The position numbers were made by a program, and so were the translations under genes. This document shows, in pieces, positions 41,314 through 47,832 of a stretch of DNA of 64,000 nt; positions within the stretch are counted from its first letter, which is position 1, and each line of letters starts with the position of its first letter. Origin of the DNA: Escherichia coli (GTDB lineage: Bacteria > Pseudomonadota > Gammaproteobacteria > Enterobacterales > Enterobacteriaceae); NCBI RefSeq assembly GCF_003334255.1, contig NZ_QOWU01000010.1; one strand, 5' to 3'. A model generated the notes under the pieces. That model had not been told where the DNA came from. It did no database searches and saw only the letters and a program-made list of their open reading frames with translations.

Positions 41314-41335
41314 GACGGCCTCTGCTGAGGCCGTC
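41314..41335. terminator. stem-loop between convergent pntB and tqsA
   Basis: GACGGCCTC-tgctg-AGGCCGTC hairpin immediately after pntB stop. Confidence 0.45.
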
Positions 41336-42240
41336 ACTCTTTATTGAGATCGCTTAACAGAACGGCGATGCTTTGACCTCCCGCTGTTTGTTCAAGCGCA
41401 ATTTTGACAATAATTGTCAACGGCACGGAAAGCAGCATACCCACCGGTCCTAACAACCATCCCCAAAAAATCAACGACAAAAATACCACCAATGTGGAAA
41501 GCCCCAGCCCACGCCCCATGATACGCGGCTCCAGAATATTGCCGAAGACCAGATTAATCAGCAGATATCCCGCCAGCACCAGCAACGCTTCGTAGAAGCC
41601 ATTAAACACCAGTACCTGAGCGATAGGGGGGATTGCCGCGAGGACTGAACCAATATTCGGGATGTAATTAAGCGCAAAGGCCAGCAATCCCCAGACAAAA
41701 GCGAAGCGAACATCGAGTGCGGCGAGCATCGCCCAGGCGACCAGGCCGGTGATGATGCTGATGGCTGTTTTCAGCACCAGATAATGAGAAACACTGTCAA
41801 TCGCACGTTGAATCGCCGCCATCCCTTCAACCGGACGCGCCATCATTTGCTGAAATTTTCCGGGCAATTGTGGCACTTCGAGCAGCATAAACAGCACCGT
41901 CAGCAGCAATAAAAATATTGATGACATGGCATTAGATAACTGCGTCAATAAGTTGGTGAGCAACGTCATCGCCGCGTTCGGATCAATATAATGCGCCAGC
42001 TGGTCAACTGAGACGTCAATCCCTACGCGTTGCAACAACGGTTCAAGCGCTTGCAGCGGCGTCATAATAGAGTTGCGATATTGCGGTAACGTCCGCGTCA
42101 ACTCGTTGAGCGCGGAACCCAGATAAGCTAATAGCAACACCATCGCCATCACGATGATGGTCATCAAAATCGACACCGCCAGTACACGCGGCACACGCCA
42201 GCGGACCATGTGTTGCACCAGCGGGTTAAGAATAACAGCA
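41334..42240 (-). pseudogene. tqsA: tqsA (AI-2 exporter) 3' fragment, separated from its 5' end by the island
   Basis: Frame encodes ...[26 protein letters not shown]... to the normal C-terminus (SDLNKE); upstream of codon AVI the frame hits TGA/TAA stops in island DNA. Confidence 0.85.
42232..42240. repeat. left copy of 9-bp direct repeat (att core / target duplication)
   Basis: ATAACAGCA; identical copy at 57098-57106; both lie within tqsA codons 43-46. Confidence 0.7.
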
Positions 42241-42415: not shown

Positions 42416-43645
42416 GTGAGCAGAGCAATGAACAAACTGAGCGATACCTTGCTAAGGAAACTTCATGGTAAGCCAGCGGAGAAAAACACGTTTTATAGTG
42501 ATGGCGGAAACCTGAGCGTGAAATATTTAACATCAGGGAAATTGACCTGGTATTTCACATACAGGGCCGGAACGGGAAGGGAGACACGACCCGAACGCAT
42601 TAAGCTGGGAAGTTATCCTGATCTGAGCCTGAAAGCAGCCAGGGAAAAAGCCGCACAGTGTCGCACATGGCTGGCTGAGGGGAAAAATCCACGTCATGAG
42701 ATGAATTACACCGTACAGGAAGCGTTAAAGCCCGTAACGGTTGGCGATGCGCTCACCTACTGGCTTGAGTATTACGTAAAGGAAAACCGCGTGGATTATA
42801 TCGCCCTGAAAAGGCGACTTAATAATCACGTAATACAGCAGATTGGTGCTATGCCGCTGGATAAATGCGAGCTACGGCACTGGCTGGCCTGTTTTGACCA
42901 GGTGGCAAAGCGAACGCCTGTTACTGCCGGATTCGTGCTACAGGCGTGCAAACAGGCGCTTAAGTTCTGCCGTAGGCGGCGCTATGCAATCAGCAACGTT
43001 CTGGACGATCTGAACGTGGCGGACGTTGGGAAAAAACCGGATATAAGCGAACGTGTCTTAAGTAACAAAGAACTTGGCGAATTATTGCAGGCACTGGACA
43101 AAAAAATATTTTCCCCTTACTACGTCGCGTTAATCCGCCTCCTGATTGTCTTCGGAGCCAGGACGGTAGAACTGAGGCTATCGGAGATCGGGGAGTGGGA
43201 TTTTACGGAAATGCTATGGACCGTTCCGAAGGAGCACAGCAAAACGAAGGTCGCAATATTCCGGCCCATACCGGAAGCGATCCTGCCGTTCGTCACGCAG
43301 CTGGTGGAGCAGAACAGGCACACGGGCTTATTGCTGGGGGAAGTGAAACAGGAGGCCAGCGTATCGCAGTATGGAAGATTAGCGCACAGGAGGCTTAATC
43401 ATCCTCACTGGTCACTGCATGACATCCGGCGCACCTTTACAACCATGCTGAACGATTTAGGCGTTGATCCGCATGTCGTGGAGCAGCTTACAGGTCATCA
43501 GATGCCAGGAATGCAGCGAGTTTATAATCATTCCCGTTATCTGGATGCTAAACGCAATGCGCTGGATATGTGGATGGAGCGGTTAGGGATACTGGCGGGA
43601 ACACATGAAAACGTAACCACGCTACCAGTAGCCAGAAGAAAATAA
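42416..43645 (+). CDS. int: tyrosine integrase, P4-type
   Basis: 409-aa ORF, GTG start after AGAGGGGG; N-terminal arm-binding domain, C-terminal catalytic region with HDIRRT and downstream Tyr (RVYNHSRY). Confidence 0.9.
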   Translation: MSRAMNKLSDTLLRKLHGKPAEKNTFYSDGGNLSVKYLTSGKLTWYFTYRAGTGRETRPERIKLGSYPDLSLKAAREKAAQCRTWLAEGKNPRHEMNYTVQEALKPVTVGDALTYWLEYYVKENRVDYIALKRRLNNHVIQQIGAMPLDKCELRHWLACFDQVAKRTPVTAGFVLQACKQALKFCRRRRYAISNVLDDLNVADVGKKPDISERVLSNKELGELLQALDKKIFSPYYVALIRLLIVFGARTVELRLSEIGEWDFTEMLWTVPKEHSKTKVAIFRPIPEAILPFVTQLVEQNRHTGLLLGEVKQEASVSQYGRLAHRRLNHPHWSLHDIRRTFTTMLNDLGVDPHVVEQLTGHQMPGMQRVYNHSRYLDAKRNALDMWMERLGILAGTHENVTTLPVARRK

Positions 43646-44019: not shown

Positions 44020-44208
44020 GTGTTAAGCACTGATCGGTTTATACGTGAAAAAGAATGCGAAAAGCTAACAGGCCTTAGCCGCTCATGCCGCTACCGCCTG
44101 GAAAAGGCCGGACAATTCCCATCACGTCGTAAACTTGGCGGTCGTTCCGTTGGCTGGTCTTTATCCGAGGTTCTGGCCTGGAAGGATAGCTGCAAGGCAG
44201 TTCATTAA
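44020..44208 (+). CDS. alpA: AlpA-family phage transcriptional regulator / excision activator
   Basis: 62-aa ORF, GTG start after AAGGGGG; MLSTDRFIREKECEKLTGLSRSCRYRLEKAGQFPSRRKLGGRSVGWSLSEVLAWK matches AlpA/Vis-type HTH proteins. Confidence 0.85.
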   Translation: MLSTDRFIREKECEKLTGLSRSCRYRLEKAGQFPSRRKLGGRSVGWSLSEVLAWKDSCKAVH

Positions 44209-44351
44209 TCACGCTGGCGGCACACAGCCGCCACACATCAATCATCTGAACACAGAGCTATAACCATGAAGATTGAATATACGCCAGAACGTGGGCGGGG
44301 ATTCGTTCGCCCTGGTGAGACTGGAAAACCACAAAATTGGGGTTTTTCAGG

Positions 44352-44388
44352 CATAAAAAAAGCGGCCCCGAAATGGAGCCGCCTTTCT
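44352..44388 (-). terminator. rho-independent terminator for minus-strand island transcript
   Basis: On minus strand: AAAGGCGGCTCC-atttc-GGGGCCGCTTT followed by T7. Confidence 0.45.
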
Positions 44389-44477
44389 GAACAGATAACA
44401 CGCTGCGCCGTTTGTGTGTGTGATCCCAAACATAAGCACGGGGATGATAGCCGCTATCAGGCTGGTGGGCAATGCAA

Positions 44478-44651
44478 TCAGTCTGGTTCAGTTCGTTGCC
44501 ATACCTGCAATGAGCGCTTTTCCCTGTACTCTTTAAGGAATTGCTCAAGGGCAAAAGCACATGGCGCGAATCTTTCTGATTCATGCTCTATCTTTCTGCG
44601 CCGTCTTTTCCGTGCCGGTGATAATGTTTTGGTCAATTCTTTATCGGTCAT
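44478..44651 (-). CDS. hypothetical small basic protein (57 aa)
   Basis: MTDKELTKTLSPARKRRRRKIEHESERF...; ATG preceded by AGGA; downstream of orf101 on same strand, before the minus-strand terminator. Confidence 0.3.
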   Translation of the reverse strand: MTDKELTKTLSPARKRRRRKIEHESERFAPCAFALEQFLKEYREKRSLQVWQRTEPD

Positions 44652-44708
44652 TGTGTTGTCCTGCATAGCAATGCGCCGTAATACCTCACACCACGGCGCT
44701 GATAGTGA

Positions 44709-45014
44709 TTATTCTGATTCTTTGGCCTTGCGGCGCTGTAGTTCTTCACGAGCGATGGCGATAAGTTGCCCGAGTTCTTCCGTAGCTTTAATACCAATTT
44801 TTTCCACTTGCGCCAATGCATCGAGAGAAGAAATCAGAGGATTTTCACTGCTTCCTTCTGCCTGGCGGCGGGCGATCTCCCCGCGCATGGCGGTTACTAT
44901 GAATCCGGCGTTGCTTTCGCCGTCCAGTTTTACGGATTCCATGCCATCAAAAGCATCATGTGGGATACGAATTGAAATCTGTTTTGATTTGTCGTTGATA
45001 GTGTTTTTTGCCAT
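44709..45014 (-). CDS. hypothetical protein (101 aa), candidate island regulator
   Basis: MAKNTINDKSKQISIRIPHDAFDG...; ATG preceded by AGGAGA; reads away from paired operator-like inverted repeats. Confidence 0.55.
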   Translation of the reverse strand: MAKNTINDKSKQISIRIPHDAFDGMESVKLDGESNAGFIVTAMRGEIARRQAEGSSENPLISSLDALAQVEKIGIKATEELGQLIAIAREELQRRKAKESE

Positions 45015-45036
45015 GTGCATTCTCCTAAACAAAAGA

Positions 45037-45112
45037 TGTGATTCAGTATACACAAAAAAGAATCACAAAAAACACTTGACCTGTGATTCAGTTGAATTTA
45101 ATTTAAATCACA
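45037..45112. promoter_or_regulatory. divergent promoter region with two operator-like inverted repeats
   Basis: TGTGATTC-N15-GAATCACA (45037-45067) and TGTGATTC-N16-AATCACA (45082-45112); TTGACC -35-like hexamer at 45076-45081. Confidence 0.55.
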
Positions 45113-45201
45113 CCTCAGTAAGAGGATGTAAACGACAACGCCCCGAACTGTTTGCGGCAGTAGCGGGGCGTCTAACCAAACCGTTAACAGGAGTAACGAT
45201 T

Positions 45202-45399
45202 ATGGCTGGAACACAGCATACCCCACGTCTGGCGCACACACAAACTGCCTTTGTGTGGCGTTTTCTGGCACTAAGTGCCGGAGAATCTCAAATCATCCAC
45301 GTAACCGCCTGGACGGAACGCGAAGCGCGTAGCCGTTGCCCGTCCGGTTGTGTTGCTGTATTCGCCGCCCGTATTCGTCAGGGGGTGTGCCATGCCTGA
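45202..45399 (+). CDS. small protein (65 aa), possibly Icd/Ash-like
   Basis: MAGTQHTPRLAHTQTAFVWRFLALSAGESQ...; ATG after AGGAG (45189-45193); first gene rightward of the operator region; family assignment from memory only. Confidence 0.45.
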   Translation: MAGTQHTPRLAHTQTAFVWRFLALSAGESQIIHVTAWTEREARSRCPSGCVAVFAARIRQGVCHA

Positions 45400-45712
45400 C
45401 ATGACCAATTACCAGTACCTGATTAATCCGCATTTTAACTGTGAGCATGATATTGCTAAAAAGGTTTATTCCGCTGCGGATGGGGCTACTGACAATATAT
45501 CAATGGCTGTTTCGTCAATTGGTAGCCTGATGTGGTATGCGTCAGAAAATAAGGAATATGACGAAAAGGCCATGCGCATTGATATGGGTAATATTGGTTT
45601 GTTACTGGCAATGCTTGGACATTTTGATATTTCGTTACGGTGCACCATTGAAAATGCCACAGATGCATTAAATGCTATAAAGAAAGCGAATACTGATTCA
45701 AATCGGGGATAA
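45392..45712 (+). CDS. hypothetical protein (106 aa)
   Basis: MPDMTNYQYLINPHFNCEHDIAKKVYSAADG...; start overlaps previous stop; no family recognised. Confidence 0.5.
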   Translation: MPDMTNYQYLINPHFNCEHDIAKKVYSAADGATDNISMAVSSIGSLMWYASENKEYDEKAMRIDMGNIGLLLAMLGHFDISLRCTIENATDALNAIKKANTDSNRG

Positions 45713-45718
45713 ATAATC

Positions 45719-46018
45719 ATGAGAACGTATTTATCTGGCTTTACTGCCAGCGGTTATGCACACCCCAAAATTATCCCCGGCGCTATTTATCTGGATAAGA
45801 ACGGTAACAGAGTAACGGTAAAAGAACTGATGTTTGACCGTGTGTATTTTATTCGTGATGGCTATTCATTTCATAGTTCGCTGAACGTGGAGATCTTTAT
45901 TAGCAGATTCCGGCGGGAAATCCCGCTTTCCAGAAATAACCATGTGTCATGTATGGATGTTGATAAAAAACTACAGGAACTGAAAAACATGATTGCCGCG
46001 TGGAGAGAGCAGAAATGA
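45719..46018 (+). CDS. hypothetical protein (99 aa)
   Basis: MRTYLSGFTASGYAHPKIIPGAIYLDKNGNRVTVKELMFDRVYFIRDGYSF...; stop overlaps primase start (ATGA). Confidence 0.5.
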   Translation: MRTYLSGFTASGYAHPKIIPGAIYLDKNGNRVTVKELMFDRVYFIRDGYSFHSSLNVEIFISRFRREIPLSRNNHVSCMDVDKKLQELKNMIAAWREQK

Positions 46019-47832
46019 AAAAAGCGCCAAATTTAAAACACCAGCCGCGTGACAAAATGACGGAAGTCATCATTTTTGCGGGTAGTGATGCGTGGGCACA
46101 TGCGAAGCAGTGGCAGGAACAGGACGGGCGACTGGCTGGCGATAACGTGCCACCTGTCTGGCTTGGAGAGCAACAACTTGCCGAACTGGACAACCTGCAA
46201 ATCGTACCGGACGGACGCTATCGCGTGCGTCTCTACCAGGCGGGGTTATTGCGTCCGGGGCTTGTTAATACCATCGGGCAGAAACTGGCAGCGGCAGGTG
46301 TCAGGGATGCTGATTATTACCCTGAAGGAATGCACAGCCAGAAACGGGAGAACTGGCGCGAATATCTGGAACGTGAGCGGGGAGAGCTGGCGGAAAAGAA
46401 AAAGGTAGTTGAACTGCCTGTAAAGAAAAAAGAGCGGGTAAAAGACGATAACGCTTCATCACTGGCGCTTAACCAGATGGGAGCAAGTCAACGCGGCGAA
46501 GTTCTCCTGGCACATTATGGCGGTGAACTGGCGATTCATGCTGACTCTGACACTGTTCACTATTACAACGGCGTTGTATGGGAGCCAGTACAGGATAAAG
46601 AATTACAGCGAGCTATGGCGCAGATTTTCATTGATGCGGAGATCAGCTATTCGCAGAACGCCATTAAATCGGCGGTCGATACCATGAAGTTAAGTTTGCC
46701 TGTAATGGGGAATACAGCCCGTAACCTGATTGGATTCAGTAACGGTGTTTTTGATACCCGGACAGGCGATTTTCGGGAGCATAACAAAAACGACTGGTTG
46801 TTAATTGCCAGTGAATTACCTTTCAGCCCACCAGCAGAGGGGGAAACGCTGGCAACACATGCGCCGAATTTCTGGAAGTGGTTACGCCGTTCGGTGGCTG
46901 AGAATGACCGCAAGGCGGATCGCGTACTGGCTGCATTATTCATGGTGCTGGCGAACCGGTACGACTGGCAGTTATTCATTGAGGTAACAGGTCCAGGGGG
47001 AAGTGGTAAAAGCGTGATGGCGGAGATTTGCACCATGCTGGCGGGTAAGGCCAACACGGTATCGGCAAGCATGAAGGCGCTGGAAGATGCCAGGGAACGC
47101 GCGTTAGTGGTTGGCTTTTCGCTGATTATCATGCCGGATATGACCCGTTACGCTGGTGATGGCGCAGGAATTAAGGCCATTACAGGCGGTGACAAGGTGG
47201 CAATCGACCCGAAGCATAAAGCCCCCTACTCAACACGCATTCAGGCGGTAGTGTTGGCGGTGAACAATAACGCCATGTCATTCAGTGACCGCAGCGGGGG
47301 GATTTCACGTCGTCGGGTGATATTCAATTTTTCGGAGGTTGTACCGGAAAACGAACGCGACCCCATGCTGGCAGAAAAAATAGAAGGAGAGCTGGCGGTT
47401 GTGATTCGCCACCTGCTTACTCGTTTTTCTGACCAGGACGCAGCTAAACGCCTGCTGTATGAGCAGCAGAAATCAGAAGAAGCTCTGGTGATAAAACGCG
47501 AGGGCGATTCGCTGGTGGACTTCTGCGGCTATCTCATGTCGTCGGTAATGTGTGATGGTCTGTTAGTGGGTAATGCCGAAATTATTCCGTTCAGTCCGCG
47601 CAGGTATCTTTATCACGCCTATCTGGCATATATGAGGGCACACGGATTCGGTAAACCTGTAACACTGACGCGCTTCGGTAAAGATATGCCGGGGGCAATG
47701 GCGGAATATGGCAGGGAGTATATGAAACGGAAAACGAAGCACGGTTTGCGTTCAAACGTGACACTGACGGAGGAATCAGAAGACTGGATGCCATCATGTG
47801 TATCGGTCACTAATGACGATAGCAAAAATTAA
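46015..47832 (+). CDS. P4 alpha-like replication protein (primase/NTPase, P-loop)
   Basis: 605-aa ORF with Walker A GPGGSGKS and Walker B-like region; followed immediately by TGTTCACC iteron cluster. Confidence 0.8.
   Translation: MKKAPNLKHQPRDKMTEVIIFAGSDAWAHAKQWQEQDGRLAGDNVPPVWLGEQQLAELDNLQIVPDGRYRVRLYQAGLLRPGLVNTIGQKLAAAGVRDADYYPEGMHSQKRENWREYLERERGELAEKKKVVELPVKKKERVKDDNASSLALNQMGASQRGEVLLAHYGGELAIHADSDTVHYYNGVVWEPVQDKELQRAMAQIFIDAEISYSQNAIKSAVDTMKLSLPVMGNTARNLIGFSNGVFDTRTGDFREHNKNDWLLIASELPFSPPAEGETLATHAPNFWKWLRRSVAENDRKADRVLAALFMVLANRYDWQLFIEVTGPGGSGKSVMAEICTMLAGKANTVSASMKALEDARERALVVGFSLIIMPDMTRYAGDGAGIKAITGGDKVAIDPKHKAPYSTRIQAVVLAVNNNAMSFSDRSGGISRRRVIFNFSEVVPENERDPMLAEKIEGELAVVIRHLLTRFSDQDAAKRLLYEQQKSEEALVIKREGDSLVDFCGYLMSSVMCDGLLVGNAEIIPFSPRRYLYHAYLAYMRAHGFGKPVTLTRFGKDMPGAMAEYGREYMKRKTKHGLRSNVTLTEESEDWMPSCVSVTNDDSKN

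What the first reader, a model, noticed from the sequence alone, without database searches (positions are those of the whole stretch)
44352..45014. Minus-strand two-gene unit (101 aa + 57 aa) with its own terminator, convergent on alpA
Seen in sequence: 101-aa ORF with AGGAGA RBS, then a 57-aa highly basic ORF (SPARKRRRRKIEHE), then a hairpin plus T7 terminator on the same strand. The N-terminus of the 101-aa protein (KQISIRIPHD) resembles the beta-strand start of ribbon-helix-helix regulators. Inference: may be the island repressor with a partner, or a small toxin-antitoxin/defense pair; the 57-aa ORF is uncertain.
Basis: inference. Interest (0 to 1): 0.45.

Follow-up and report, generated by a model that had tools for sequence, protein, structure and literature searches.

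The report
Candidate repressor cassette of a phage satellite
The two small minus-strand genes are real, and the first most likely encodes the still-unidentified repressor that keeps this E. coli phage satellite silent; the whole cassette is written antisense inside a long open reading frame on the other strand that selection keeps free of stop codons.

Summary
The 101-aa ORF is 44709-45014(-) with an AGGAGA ribosome-binding site. The 57-aa ORF is 44478-44651(-). A hairpin plus U7 terminator lies at 44353-44387(-). All converge on alpA.

The island (int 42416 to terL 56037) is a capsid-forming PICI inserted in tqsA. The 101-aa protein belongs to the YlcI/YnfO family. Its N-terminus is predicted to form a ribbon-helix-helix dimer, followed by a long C-terminal helix.

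Four half-sites (TGTGATTCA) form two inverted repeats, 45037-45067 and 45082-45112. They bracket the divergent promoters. Across genera their sequence co-varies with the protein's beta-strand. The best reading is therefore an autoregulated, Mnt-like repressor of the icd-like/replication/packaging operon. Published work calls the existence of such a repressor in Gram-negative PICIs "unclear".

The 57-aa gene is probably real but optional, and its function is unknown. A toxin-antitoxin or defence reading is not supported.

This matches the phage P4 eta/kil nested-gene architecture. Here a protein repressor sits where P4 has its CI RNA. Stop codons in that frame are strongly avoided: 2 observed against 74 expected.

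The parts
44020..44208 (+). alpA-like HTH gene (62 aa). It is the activator of Gram-negative PICIs and converges on the minus-strand unit.
   Evidence: ORF list. RefSeq annotates an identical relative as a 'helix-turn-helix transcriptional regulator'. Role of AlpA: PMC6092414.
44266..45399 (+). eta-like long ORF of 377 codons (stop-to-stop 44209-45399). Its last 65 codons (45202-45399) are the Icd-like/Kil-like gene. It runs antisense through the terminator, the small ORF, the spacer, the RHH gene and the divergent promoter region.
   Evidence: The frame is open for 313-607 codons in 15 of 15 E. coli alleles and in most loci of other genera. It has 0 stops in the 'intergenic' part against 5-9 in the other two frames, and intergenic lengths are 1 mod 3. 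About 58 of 69 upstream sequence types are open for at least 100 codons. Only the C-terminus hits a family, NF033153. P4 eta has the same layout.
44353..44387 (-). Intrinsic terminator of the minus-strand unit: a 13-bp stem with a 5-nt loop, followed by U7.
   Evidence: Fold of -22.4 kcal/mol, z = -3.5. It is weak on the + strand.
44478..44651 (-). 57-aa basic protein gene (MTDKELTKTLSPARKRRRRKIEHESERFAPCAFALEQFLKEY...). It is an accessory second gene of unknown function.
   Evidence: Translation. 36 homologues, confined to E. coli and Shigella. Conserved core with in-frame indels. Conserved second ATG. pN/pS 0.34. phrog_21027. Optional across loci.
44652..44708 (-). 57-nt intercistronic spacer of constant length, with a hairpin at 44673-44699 (GCGCCGTGG...CCACGGCGC-type; outer stem GCGCC/GGCGC invariant).
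   Evidence: Same length in every allele. It travels with the small ORF behind long YlcI, short YlcI and Arc-like RHH genes.
44709..45014 (-). 101-aa YlcI/YnfO-family protein. It has an N-terminal ribbon-helix-helix (residues about 10-55) and a C-terminal long helix (59-100). It is the candidate island repressor.
45021..45026 (-). Shine-Dalgarno AGGAGA of the RHH gene.
   Evidence: Sequence.
45037..45067 (.). Operator O1: the inverted repeat TGTGATTCA-N13-AGAATCACA. It brackets a TATACT -10-like hexamer on the minus strand (45045-50), the putative promoter of the RHH gene.
   Evidence: Half-sites located. Fixed offsets, and covariation with the beta-strand type.
45076..45104 (+). Putative internal promoter of the icd-like operon, equivalent to P4 P_LE. 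The -35 is TTGACC (45076-81) and the AT-rich -10-like element is TAATTT (45099-104).
   Evidence: The -35 TTGAC is conserved at the same offset in nearly all sequence types. It was not called by the strict consensus scanner, so it is an inference.
45082..45112 (.). Operator O2: the inverted repeat TGTGATTCA-N13-TAAATCACA. It runs from just after the -35 to the expected transcription start of the icd-like promoter.
45138..45171 (+). Conserved GC-rich hairpin in the leader upstream of the icd-like start (ACGCCCCG...CGGGGCGT). Its role is unknown.
   Evidence: Fold. It is conserved as 'TKP..G..TG' in the frame translations of many alleles. It has no Rfam C4/isrK hit.
45202..45399 (+). Icd-like (P4 Kil-like) gene of 65 aa. 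It is nested in frame at the end of the eta-like ORF and is the first gene of the replication/packaging operon.
   Evidence: NF033153 at 60.8 bits. RefSeq annotation. P4 Kil carries the same domain.

Best explanation
The unit is the immunity (repressor) cassette of a capsid-forming PICI.

The 101-aa protein is a ribbon-helix-helix DNA-binding protein. Its dimers are proposed to bind two 31-bp inverted-repeat operators, O1 at 45037-45067 and O2 at 45082-45112. O2 covers the -35/-10 spacer and the expected start site of the rightward promoter, which drives icd-like, DUF4222, primase, SSB, the capsid genes and terminase. O1 covers the -10 of the protein's own leftward promoter. The protein would therefore keep the island silent and autoregulate. 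The long C-terminal helix probably joins dimers so that O1 and O2, 45 bp apart, are bound cooperatively, as in P22 Mnt. Short 59-aa alleles would work like Arc.

The 57-aa basic protein is an optional second gene, expressed behind an intercistronic hairpin. Its role is unknown; an accessory modulator is a guess.

The cassette sits antisense inside an eta-like ORF that follows alpA. By analogy with P4, helper-induced and AlpA-activated transcription from upstream is translated through this ORF. Translation would prevent termination, so the transcript runs across the repressor cassette into the operon. This would bypass the repressor and probably interfere with its expression.

Shown: the ORFs, the terminator, family membership, the predicted RHH fold, the operator repeats and their covariation, the open antisense frame, and stop avoidance in it.

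Inferred: DNA binding, repression, the promoters, the role of the C-terminal helix, and the read-through mechanism.
For: Context:
- The island is a cf-PICI, with int, alpA, primase, major capsid, protease, portal, HNH, TerS and TerL, and no tail or lysis genes.
- The order int-alpA-[RHH, opposite strand]-icd-like-DUF4222-primase is conserved in Escherichia, Enterobacter, Yersinia, Serratia, Pantoea, Hafnia, Xenorhabdus, Photorhabdus and others.

Fold:
- The tandem-fused N-terminal model gives E10-18, H19-28 and H35-55, twice, with pLDDT about 90 and pTM 0.70.
- The full-length model adds a helix at 59-100.

Operators:
- Four half-sites lie at 45037, 45059, 45082 and 45104. They sit at fixed offsets from the start codon in every sequence type.
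- The half-site sequence changes with the beta-strand sequence. KSKQISIRIP goes with TGTGATTCA in E. coli and in Yersinia. KSQSLTARIP goes with GTGTAAGAC in E. coli and in Enterobacter. KSQLTTVRVP goes with GTGTGTTTCA in E. coli and Photorhabdus, and the one-residue variant KSQLFTVRVP goes with it in Serratia. At least four further pairings were seen.
- The -35 TTGAC between O1 and O2 is conserved.

The RHH gene stands alone in most non-E. coli loci, so it is the core element.

eta-like frame: searches show it is open. In 72 distinct RHH genes there are 2 antisense stops against 73.8 expected. In 29 small ORFs there are 0 against 12.6.

P4 precedent:
- P4 has a 199-aa ORF starting at the vis stop, with the Icd-like domain at 146-193.
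- It contains the C4 and isrK RNAs. These are absent from the window and from 7 PICI loci.
- The mechanism is summarised in PMC10111431.

Literature gap:
- A global repressor in Gram-negative PICIs is called 'unclear' (PMC6092414).
- The gene downstream of alpA in cf-PICIs is 'of unknown function' (bioRxiv 10.1101/2025.02.11.637232).
Against: - There are no binding or expression data.
- Pfam gives only marginal RHH-clan hits: PSK_trans_fac at E 0.066, and RHH_1 at E 0.04 in 1 of 59 members.
- The RHH dimer comes from an artificial tandem fusion that I built. The monomer model shows no strand.
- The promoters are inferred. The consensus scanner called none of them.
- The operator/beta-strand covariation is a qualitative table on related sequences, not a phylogenetically corrected statistic.
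- Published work shows that AlpA is required for induction, and it did not need a repressor to explain that.
- The operators could in principle be AlpA sites. However, they co-vary with the RHH and not with alpA, which is nearly identical in L002 and L003 while their RHH and operators differ.
- Within-type substitutions in the intergenic part show no codon-position bias (25/26/24). The eta-like frame is therefore kept open without any visible amino-acid constraint.
Confidence: 0.62

Rival explanations
1. The pair is a type II toxin-antitoxin or small defence module. The RHH protein would be the antitoxin and autorepressor, and the 57-aa basic protein the toxin or effector.
Against: - Neither protein hits PADLOC, and the 57-aa protein has no Pfam or PDB-sequence hit either.
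- A constant 57-nt hairpin spacer separates the genes, so they are not coupled.
- The small gene is missing from about half of the loci and from nearly all non-E. coli genera, which would leave an 'orphan antitoxin' in a conserved position.
- The identical small ORF follows 59-aa RHH-only alleles and an Arc-like RHH.
- The operators lie over the promoter of the island's main operon, not only over the unit's own promoter.
Confidence: 0.05
2. Only the + strand eta-like ORF and the RHH gene are functional. The 57-aa ORF would be an unexpressed by-product of a frame that stays open because the opposite strand must stay open.
For: The antisense frame that shares wobble positions has nearly the same pN/pS as the small-ORF frame (0.42 against 0.34). 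The family is narrow, confined to E. coli and Shigella. C-termini vary in a frameshift-like way. PGAP annotates this ORF inconsistently. The ORF is optional across loci.
Against: - The start codon is conserved, with AGGA 7 nt upstream, while the upstream ATG is not conserved.
- The 57-nt spacing is exact in every allele.
- Indels are in frame.
- Two divergent subfamilies keep a shared FALExF[LV] motif in this frame.
- A dedicated terminator follows the ORF.
- It hits phrog_21027.
Confidence: 0.2
3. The RHH protein binds the repeats but is not the master repressor. It might be an activator, or an accessory DNA-bending factor for excision, replication or packaging (as TraY and ParG are). Alternatively it might regulate only itself, with island silence depending solely on the lack of AlpA.
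For: The top structural match is TraY, a relaxosome accessory protein. The published model explains induction through the activator AlpA alone. The island's replication module lies close by.
Against: O2 lies between the -35 and the expected start site of the rightward promoter, which is a repressing position. The divergent arrangement with two operators resembles P22 immI Mnt/Arc. The TraY match reflects the tandem RHH topology that I imposed.
Confidence: 0.13

Closest known systems
Phage P22 immI region: Mnt and Arc ribbon-helix-helix repressors controlling P_ant and P_mnt
   Same: Both have a small RHH repressor transcribed divergently from the promoter it represses, with symmetric operators overlapping both promoters. 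The long form (RHH plus a C-terminal helix) resembles Mnt, which has an RHH plus a tetramerisation helix. The 59-aa short alleles resemble Arc. Ant/Bro-type genes share the same zone in related islands. The P22 facts come from established knowledge, not from a test here.
   Different: There is no detectable sequence similarity: Pfam Arc/RHH_1 is not significant. The controlled operon here is icd-like plus replication plus capsid genes of a satellite. The cassette lies antisense inside a translated ORF.
Satellite phage P4 immunity region: vis (AlpA homologue), nested eta/kil genes, internal promoter P_LE, CI RNA and seqA
   Same: An alpA homologue is followed by a long ORF whose in-frame C-terminal 65 aa is an Icd-like/Kil protein (NF033153 in both). 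An internal promoter lies inside that ORF. In P4, translation of the long ORF prevents termination (PMC10111431).
   Different: P4 immunity is RNA-based. The C4 and isrK models hit inside P4 eta, but neither hits the window or 7 related PICI loci. Here that position is occupied by an antisense protein-repressor cassette with operators. The ORF is 377 codons here against 199 in P4. The 101-aa protein has no match in the phage collection, which includes P4.
Stl / Rpr master repressors of SaPIs and Gram-positive PICIs
   Same: Functional analogy. The gene is transcribed divergently from the replication/packaging operon and is proposed to hold the island silent until a helper phage acts.
   Different: The fold is unrelated, since Stl proteins are large HTH proteins. 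In those islands int lies on the repressor's strand, whereas here int and alpA are on the opposite strand. Derepression by a helper protein is unknown here. AlpA-driven read-through is the proposed route instead.
YlcI (DLP12) and YnfO (Qin) of E. coli K-12: NCBIfam NF041551, Pfam DUF3950
   Same: Sequence family membership of the N-terminal 42 residues (65.7 bits). DUF3950 is hit by one member of the family alignment.
   Different: Those proteins are uncharacterised short forms in lambdoid prophages. No function, fold or operator had turned up for the family in the literature searched.

Membership tests
YlcI/YnfO family (NCBIfam NF041551) | Score above the curated cutoff of the N-terminal family model. 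| tested here: met
   65.7 bits against a cutoff of 30, residues 9-50 aligned to model positions 1-42 of 42. RefSeq names the identical protein WP_001107606.1 'YlcI/YnfO family protein'.
Ribbon-helix-helix (Arc/MetJ/CopG) superfamily | A beta-strand, helix, helix unit that pairs into a dimer through an antiparallel two-stranded sheet. | tested here: met
Ribbon-helix-helix (Arc/MetJ/CopG) superfamily | Significant sequence match to an RHH Pfam family or to a solved RHH protein. | tested here: not met
   The best hits are PSK_trans_fac at E 0.066, and RHH_1 at E 0.04 in 1 of 59 members. The profile search against PDB sequences returned no RHH protein.
Operator-binding transcriptional repressor of a divergent promoter (Mnt/Arc-like) | Symmetric repeats over the promoters whose sequence tracks the DNA-reading residues. 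| tested here: met
   There are two inverted repeats at fixed offsets. The half-site sequence co-varies with the beta-strand type, and three pairings recur in different genera, one of them through a one-residue beta-strand variant.
Operator-binding transcriptional repressor of a divergent promoter (Mnt/Arc-like) | Demonstrated DNA binding and repression. | not testable with these tools
   This needs EMSA or footprinting and reporter assays.
Type II toxin-antitoxin system | The second gene is homologous to a known toxin or defence family. | tested here: not met
   The 57-aa protein has no Pfam, NCBIfam, PADLOC or PDB-sequence match.
Type II toxin-antitoxin system | Obligate co-occurrence and tight coupling of the two genes. 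| tested here: not met
   47 of about 113 loci have no second ORF within 120 nt, and non-E. coli genera lack it. A 57-nt hairpin spacer separates the genes.
P4-type eta/kil nested-gene immunity region | A long ORF downstream of the alpA/vis homologue that ends, in frame, with an Icd-like/Kil domain and contains an internal promoter. | tested here: met
   The window ORF 44266-45399 carries NF033153 at residues 329-372. P4 has a 199-aa ORF with NF033153 at 146-193. The frame is conserved in about 58 of 69 sequence types. The internal promoter is inferred from a conserved TTGAC.
P4-type eta/kil nested-gene immunity region | CI (C4-type) immunity RNA and its seqA (isrK-type) target inside the long ORF. 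| tested here: not met
   Rfam C4 and isrK hit P4 at 74.9 and 60.8 bits. Neither hits the window at E up to 1, nor 7 related PICI loci at gathering score.
Capsid-forming PICI (cf-PICI) | int plus alpA plus primase, together with the island's own capsid, protease, portal, HNH, TerS and TerL, and no tail or lysis genes. | tested here: met
   PHROG hits for all of these genes lie between 42416 and 56037. The same tqsA insertion site and layout are seen in an O157:H7 strain. EcCIEDL933 is the published prototype.

The most novel reading that the evidence does not exclude
The YlcI/YnfO-type RHH protein is the missing master repressor of Gram-negative PICIs, including cf-PICIs. Its cassette is a true antisense-overlapping gene set: about 160 codons of two minus-strand genes are embedded in a translated eta-like ORF. 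Selection removes antisense stop codons because translation of the + strand is needed to carry AlpA-activated transcription across the cassette into the replication/packaging operon. The switch would then be a protein repressor at an internal promoter, overridden and silenced by translated convergent read-through. This would be a protein-based replacement of the P4 CI-RNA immunity system.
Probability: 0.4. Interest if true: 0.8.

Novelty: new variant of a known kind. Interest (0 to 1): 0.68.

Why it matters
PICIs and cf-PICIs are abundant. The small-ORF part of this cassette alone matches 31% of complete E. coli genomes, and these islands move virulence and defence genes. For Gram-positive PICIs the Stl repressor is the key to how a helper phage wakes the island. 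For Gram-negative PICIs only the activator AlpA is known, and the existence of a repressor was explicitly left open (PMC6092414).

This analysis names a candidate and predicts its operators to the base. It also predicts specificity classes, as beta-strand and half-site pairs. These predictions can be tested with a few EMSAs, reporter fusions and one deletion in EcCIEDL933.

The locus is also an unusually clean case of selection on both strands. In 72 distinct RHH genes, 490 codon contexts could create an antisense stop. Only 2 do, against about 74 expected. This case has a mechanistic rationale borrowed from P4 (translation prevents termination), which bears on the disputed question of functional antisense overlapping ORFs in bacteria. 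Genome annotation currently handles the locus inconsistently, with pseudogene calls on the + strand and the small ORF often missing.

Tried and rejected
- **Pfam on both proteins** gave nothing significant.
- **Profile search against PDB sequences.** The only near-hit was a helix-hairpin-helix-like match of the C-terminal segment to Hef (E 0.014). I rejected it because AF2 predicts one continuous helix at 59-100.
- **Rfam search for a C4/CI or isrK RNA in the leader** found none.
- **Read-through fusion of alpA with the long ORF.** In the window the two are in frame and separated only by the alpA stop codon. I rejected a fusion because the frame relation is not conserved in L003 and L004.
- **The long + ORF as a real multi-domain Bro-type protein.** Only the C-terminal Icd-like part matches any family. 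One allele has a short Bro-N/Ant remnant. Within-type substitutions show no codon-position bias. The frame therefore seems to be kept open without amino-acid constraint.
- **Codon-position or pN/pS analysis to decide which strand codes under the small ORF.** This is only weakly discriminating, because the two frames share wobble positions.
- **tblastn of the RHH protein against the phage collection** gave no match. The Icd-like protein matched only one 16.5-kb 'phage' record.
- **The Forti 1999 P4 paper** (PMC94026) is not held. One literature query failed for lack of capacity and one on a short term.
Full report
**1. Observation**

- The 101-aa ORF is 44709-45014(-). AGGAGA lies at 45021-45026, 6 nt upstream of the ATG.
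- The second ORF is listed mechanically as 62 aa from ATG 44666. In several alleles that ATG is a Leu codon. The second ATG (44651) and an AGGA 7 nt upstream of it are conserved.
- The terminator is a 13-bp stem-loop at 44357-44387 followed by U7. It folds at -22.4 kcal/mol, z = -3.5. The simple consensus scanner missed it. On the + strand it has no U-tract.
- The unit converges on the alpA-like gene at 44020-44208(+).

**2. Context**

The window is E. coli. An island is inserted in tqsA next to pntB. It carries int (42416-43645), alpA, the minus-strand unit, an Icd-like gene (45202-45399) and DUF4222. It also carries a primase (46000-47832), SSB, a PerC-like gene, major capsid, protease, portal, HNH, TerS and TerL (to 56037). 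There are no tail or lysis genes. This is the layout of a capsid-forming PICI, whose prototype is EcCIEDL933. An O157:H7 strain has the same insertion and layout.

**3. The 101-aa protein**

It belongs to the YlcI/YnfO family (NF041551, 65.7 bits against a cutoff of 30; phrog_6522).
- The family is small. It has 74 representatives at 50% identity among 1.84 billion proteins. It is confined to Enterobacterales.
- Alignments show two modules. One is a conserved N-terminal domain (residues 9-51). The other is a helical C-terminal domain (58-97) that is simply absent from 59-65-aa alleles.
- Pfam gives only marginal RHH-clan hits.
- AF2 on the monomer gives two helices plus a long helix at 59-100.
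- RHH domains fold only as dimers. I therefore fused two N-terminal domains with a Gly-Ser linker, for 43 homologues, and predicted that construct. Both halves form strand 10-18, helix 19-28 and helix 35-55, with pLDDT about 90 and pTM 0.70.

The caveat is that this is a prediction on a designed fusion.

**4. What it binds**

The 187 bp between the RHH start and the Icd-like start contains four copies of TGTGATTCA, allowing one mismatch. They lie at 45037(+), 45059(-), 45082(+) and 45104(-). They form two inverted repeats 45 bp apart.
- O1 brackets a TATACT hexamer on the minus strand, the putative promoter of the RHH gene.
- O2 starts directly after a conserved TTGACC (45076-81) and ends at the expected transcription start of the rightward operon.

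I compared 124 loci from E. coli genomes, from one genome per species of other genera, and from IMG/VR. The four half-sites stay at the same offsets, but their sequence changes together with the beta-strand of the protein:

| Beta-strand | Half-site | Seen in |
|---|---|---|
| KSKQISIRIP | TGTGATTCA | E. coli, Yersinia |
| KSQSLTARIP | GTGTAAGAC | E. coli, Enterobacter |
| KSQLTTVRVP (Serratia: KSQLFTVRVP) | GTGTGTTTCA | E. coli, Photorhabdus, Serratia |
| KSQMTTIRVP | TGTATATCAC | |
| KSQMTTVRIP | GTGTATTTCA | |
| KSQQLNARFP | GGTATTCAC | |
| KSQTVAARVP | GTGTTCAACAC | |

The beta-strand is the DNA-reading element of RHH proteins, which is established knowledge. This is the pattern expected if the protein binds these repeats. 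The repeats do not follow alpA: L002 and L003 have nearly identical alpA but different RHH types and operators.

The geometry predicts repression of the rightward promoter and autoregulation, as with P22 Mnt/Arc. The C-terminal helix is a plausible oligomerisation element linking dimers on O1 and O2. That last point is an inference.

**5. The 57-aa protein**

Evidence that the gene is real:
- Homologues exist only in E. coli and Shigella (36 clusters).
- The core SPARKRRRRKIEHESERFAPCAFALEQFLKEY is conserved. Indels are in frame and C-termini vary.
- Its frame has the lowest pN/pS of the six frames, 0.34.
- Its ATG always lies exactly 57 nt after the stop of the upstream gene. The spacer carries a hairpin with an invariant GCGCC/GGCGC outer stem.
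- The spacer plus small ORF follows long YlcI, short YlcI and, in L032, an Arc-like 57-aa RHH. A divergent 75-aa subfamily shares the motif FALExF[LV].

Evidence that it is accessory:
- About half of the loci have no second gene, and almost all non-E. coli genera lack it.
- It matches nothing in Pfam, NCBIfam, PADLOC or PDB sequences.

I conclude that it is probably a real gene (about 0.75) and accessory. Its function is unknown. The toxin-antitoxin or defence reading is unsupported.

**6. The other strand**

A 377-codon ORF (44266-45399, stop-to-stop from 44209) runs on the + strand through everything described above. It ends as the Icd-like gene. PGAP calls parts of it a pseudogene in some genomes.

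This is not an accident:
- The frame is open for 313-607 codons in all 15 E. coli alleles first examined. One of them has a second inserted RHH module.
- It is open in most loci of other genera.
- In the 'intergenic' promoter region it has 0 stops where the other two frames have 5-9. The lengths of that region (187, 193, 196, 199, 205, 208, 211 and 334) are all 1 mod 3. The exceptions are one allele type (L002, L004 and L035, 197 nt) and L024 (186 nt).
- Among 69 distinct upstream sequence types, about 58 are open for at least 100 codons.
- The frame shares wobble positions with both minus-strand genes. Antisense stops can therefore arise only where a codon ending in T or C precedes Tyr, or a codon ending in T precedes His or Gln. 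In 72 distinct RHH genes there are 490 such contexts, with 2 stops observed against 73.8 expected from synonymous usage elsewhere in the same genes. In 29 small ORFs there are 0 against 12.6. These sequences are related, so the numbers are not independent trials.
- Substitutions within allele types show no codon-position bias in the non-overlapped parts (25/26/24; 6/7/8).
- Only the C-terminal Icd-like part matches any protein family.

The frame is therefore kept translatable, but its amino-acid sequence seems unconstrained.

**7. Explanation of the long ORF**

Mageeney et al. (PMC10111431) summarise the P4 immunity region, citing Forti et al. 1999:
- It contains the constitutive internal promoter, seqA and the CI RNA.
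- Kil is its in-frame C-terminal part.
- Translation of eta from the upstream late promoter prevents termination, so that transcription reaches the downstream genes.

I checked this on the P4 record. A 199-aa ORF starts at the vis stop and carries the Icd-like domain at 146-193 (73.3 bits). Rfam C4 (74.9 bits) and isrK (60.8 bits) lie inside it. Neither RNA model hits the window or seven PICI loci.

The window therefore has the P4 eta/kil architecture. The RNA immunity elements are replaced by an antisense protein-repressor cassette and its operators. The proposed switch is as follows:
- In the quiescent state the RHH protein shuts the internal promoter.
- On helper induction, AlpA-activated transcription is translated through the eta-like ORF. 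AlpA autoactivates, according to PMC6092414.
- That transcript ignores the minus-strand terminator, crosses the cassette convergently and enters the operon.

This last chain is inference by analogy.

**8. Literature position**

- Fillol-Salom et al. [quoted passage not shown]
- He et al. 2025 call the gene downstream of alpA in cf-PICIs 'of unknown function'.
- Searches for YlcI, YnfO and DUF3950, and for RHH together with PICI, found no functional study.

The library is incomplete, so prior description elsewhere cannot be excluded.

**9. Verdict**

- The unit is best described as a Mnt/Arc-like immunity cassette of a cf-PICI, embedded antisense in a P4-type eta-like ORF.
- It is a new variant of known kinds.
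- It makes an open question in satellite biology directly testable.

Noticed in passing
window 44266-45399 (+): A 377-codon ORF lies antisense to both minus-strand genes and runs through the promoter region, ending as the Icd-like gene. It is conserved as an open frame across alleles and genera. I interpret it as a P4 eta/kil-type nested gene. PGAP annotates it inconsistently, as 'Icd-like', 'hypothetical' or 'BRO-N' pseudogenes.
   Followed up: yes
window 45138-45171 (+): A conserved GC-rich hairpin (ACGCCCCG...CGGGGCGT) lies in the leader between the putative icd promoter and the icd Shine-Dalgarno sequence. On the minus strand it is followed by a T-rich run and could insulate the RHH promoter. 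It has no Rfam C4/isrK match.
   Followed up: partly
window 44652-44708 (-), hairpin 44673-44699: The intercistronic spacer is exactly 57 nt in every allele and has a conserved hairpin. It behaves as one mobile unit with the small ORF, joined directly to the stop codon of whichever RHH gene lies upstream. It could be an attenuator, a processing site or a protein or RNA target.
   Followed up: partly
L032 1979-3540 (also L033, L046): Some islands carry two tandem modules on the minus strand. The first is YlcI-101 plus a 75-aa FALEAFL protein. The second is an Arc-like 57-aa RHH (MSTPLEKRSPPYQMRLPEEF...) plus a 67-aa small-ORF paralogue. The + strand frame still stays open for 607 codons.
   Followed up: partly
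between alpA and the small ORF: L034, L036, L041, L042, L043 (window equivalent 44209-44477): This junction is a variable cargo site. Other islands carry BRO-N, AntA/AntB antirepressor, Rha and GIY-YIG nuclease genes here on the + strand. L035 has a Bro-N/Ant remnant in the long-ORF frame. This fits the 'Bro zone' of Gram-negative PICIs described in PMC10111431.
   Followed up: partly
L001 13093-13557; L042; L056 and L076 types: Many related islands have a second, tandem Icd-like domain fused in the same frame, giving open frames of 182-200 codons rightward from the RHH start. The window has a single copy.
   Followed up: no
window 45350-45712 (+): The mechanical 120-aa ORF after icd starts at a GTG 50 nt inside icd. 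In relatives (L002, L004) the corresponding gene is annotated as starting 8 nt before the icd stop. The + strand genes are tightly packed or overlapping, as expected for one translationally coupled operon.
   Followed up: no
window 41334-42218 (-) and 42416 (+): The island interrupts tqsA. RefSeq marks the remnant as a pseudogene lacking its N-terminus. The same insertion site is used by related islands with different RHH, operator and replication modules (primase or RepA helicase). The regulatory and replication zones are therefore mosaic.
   Followed up: partly
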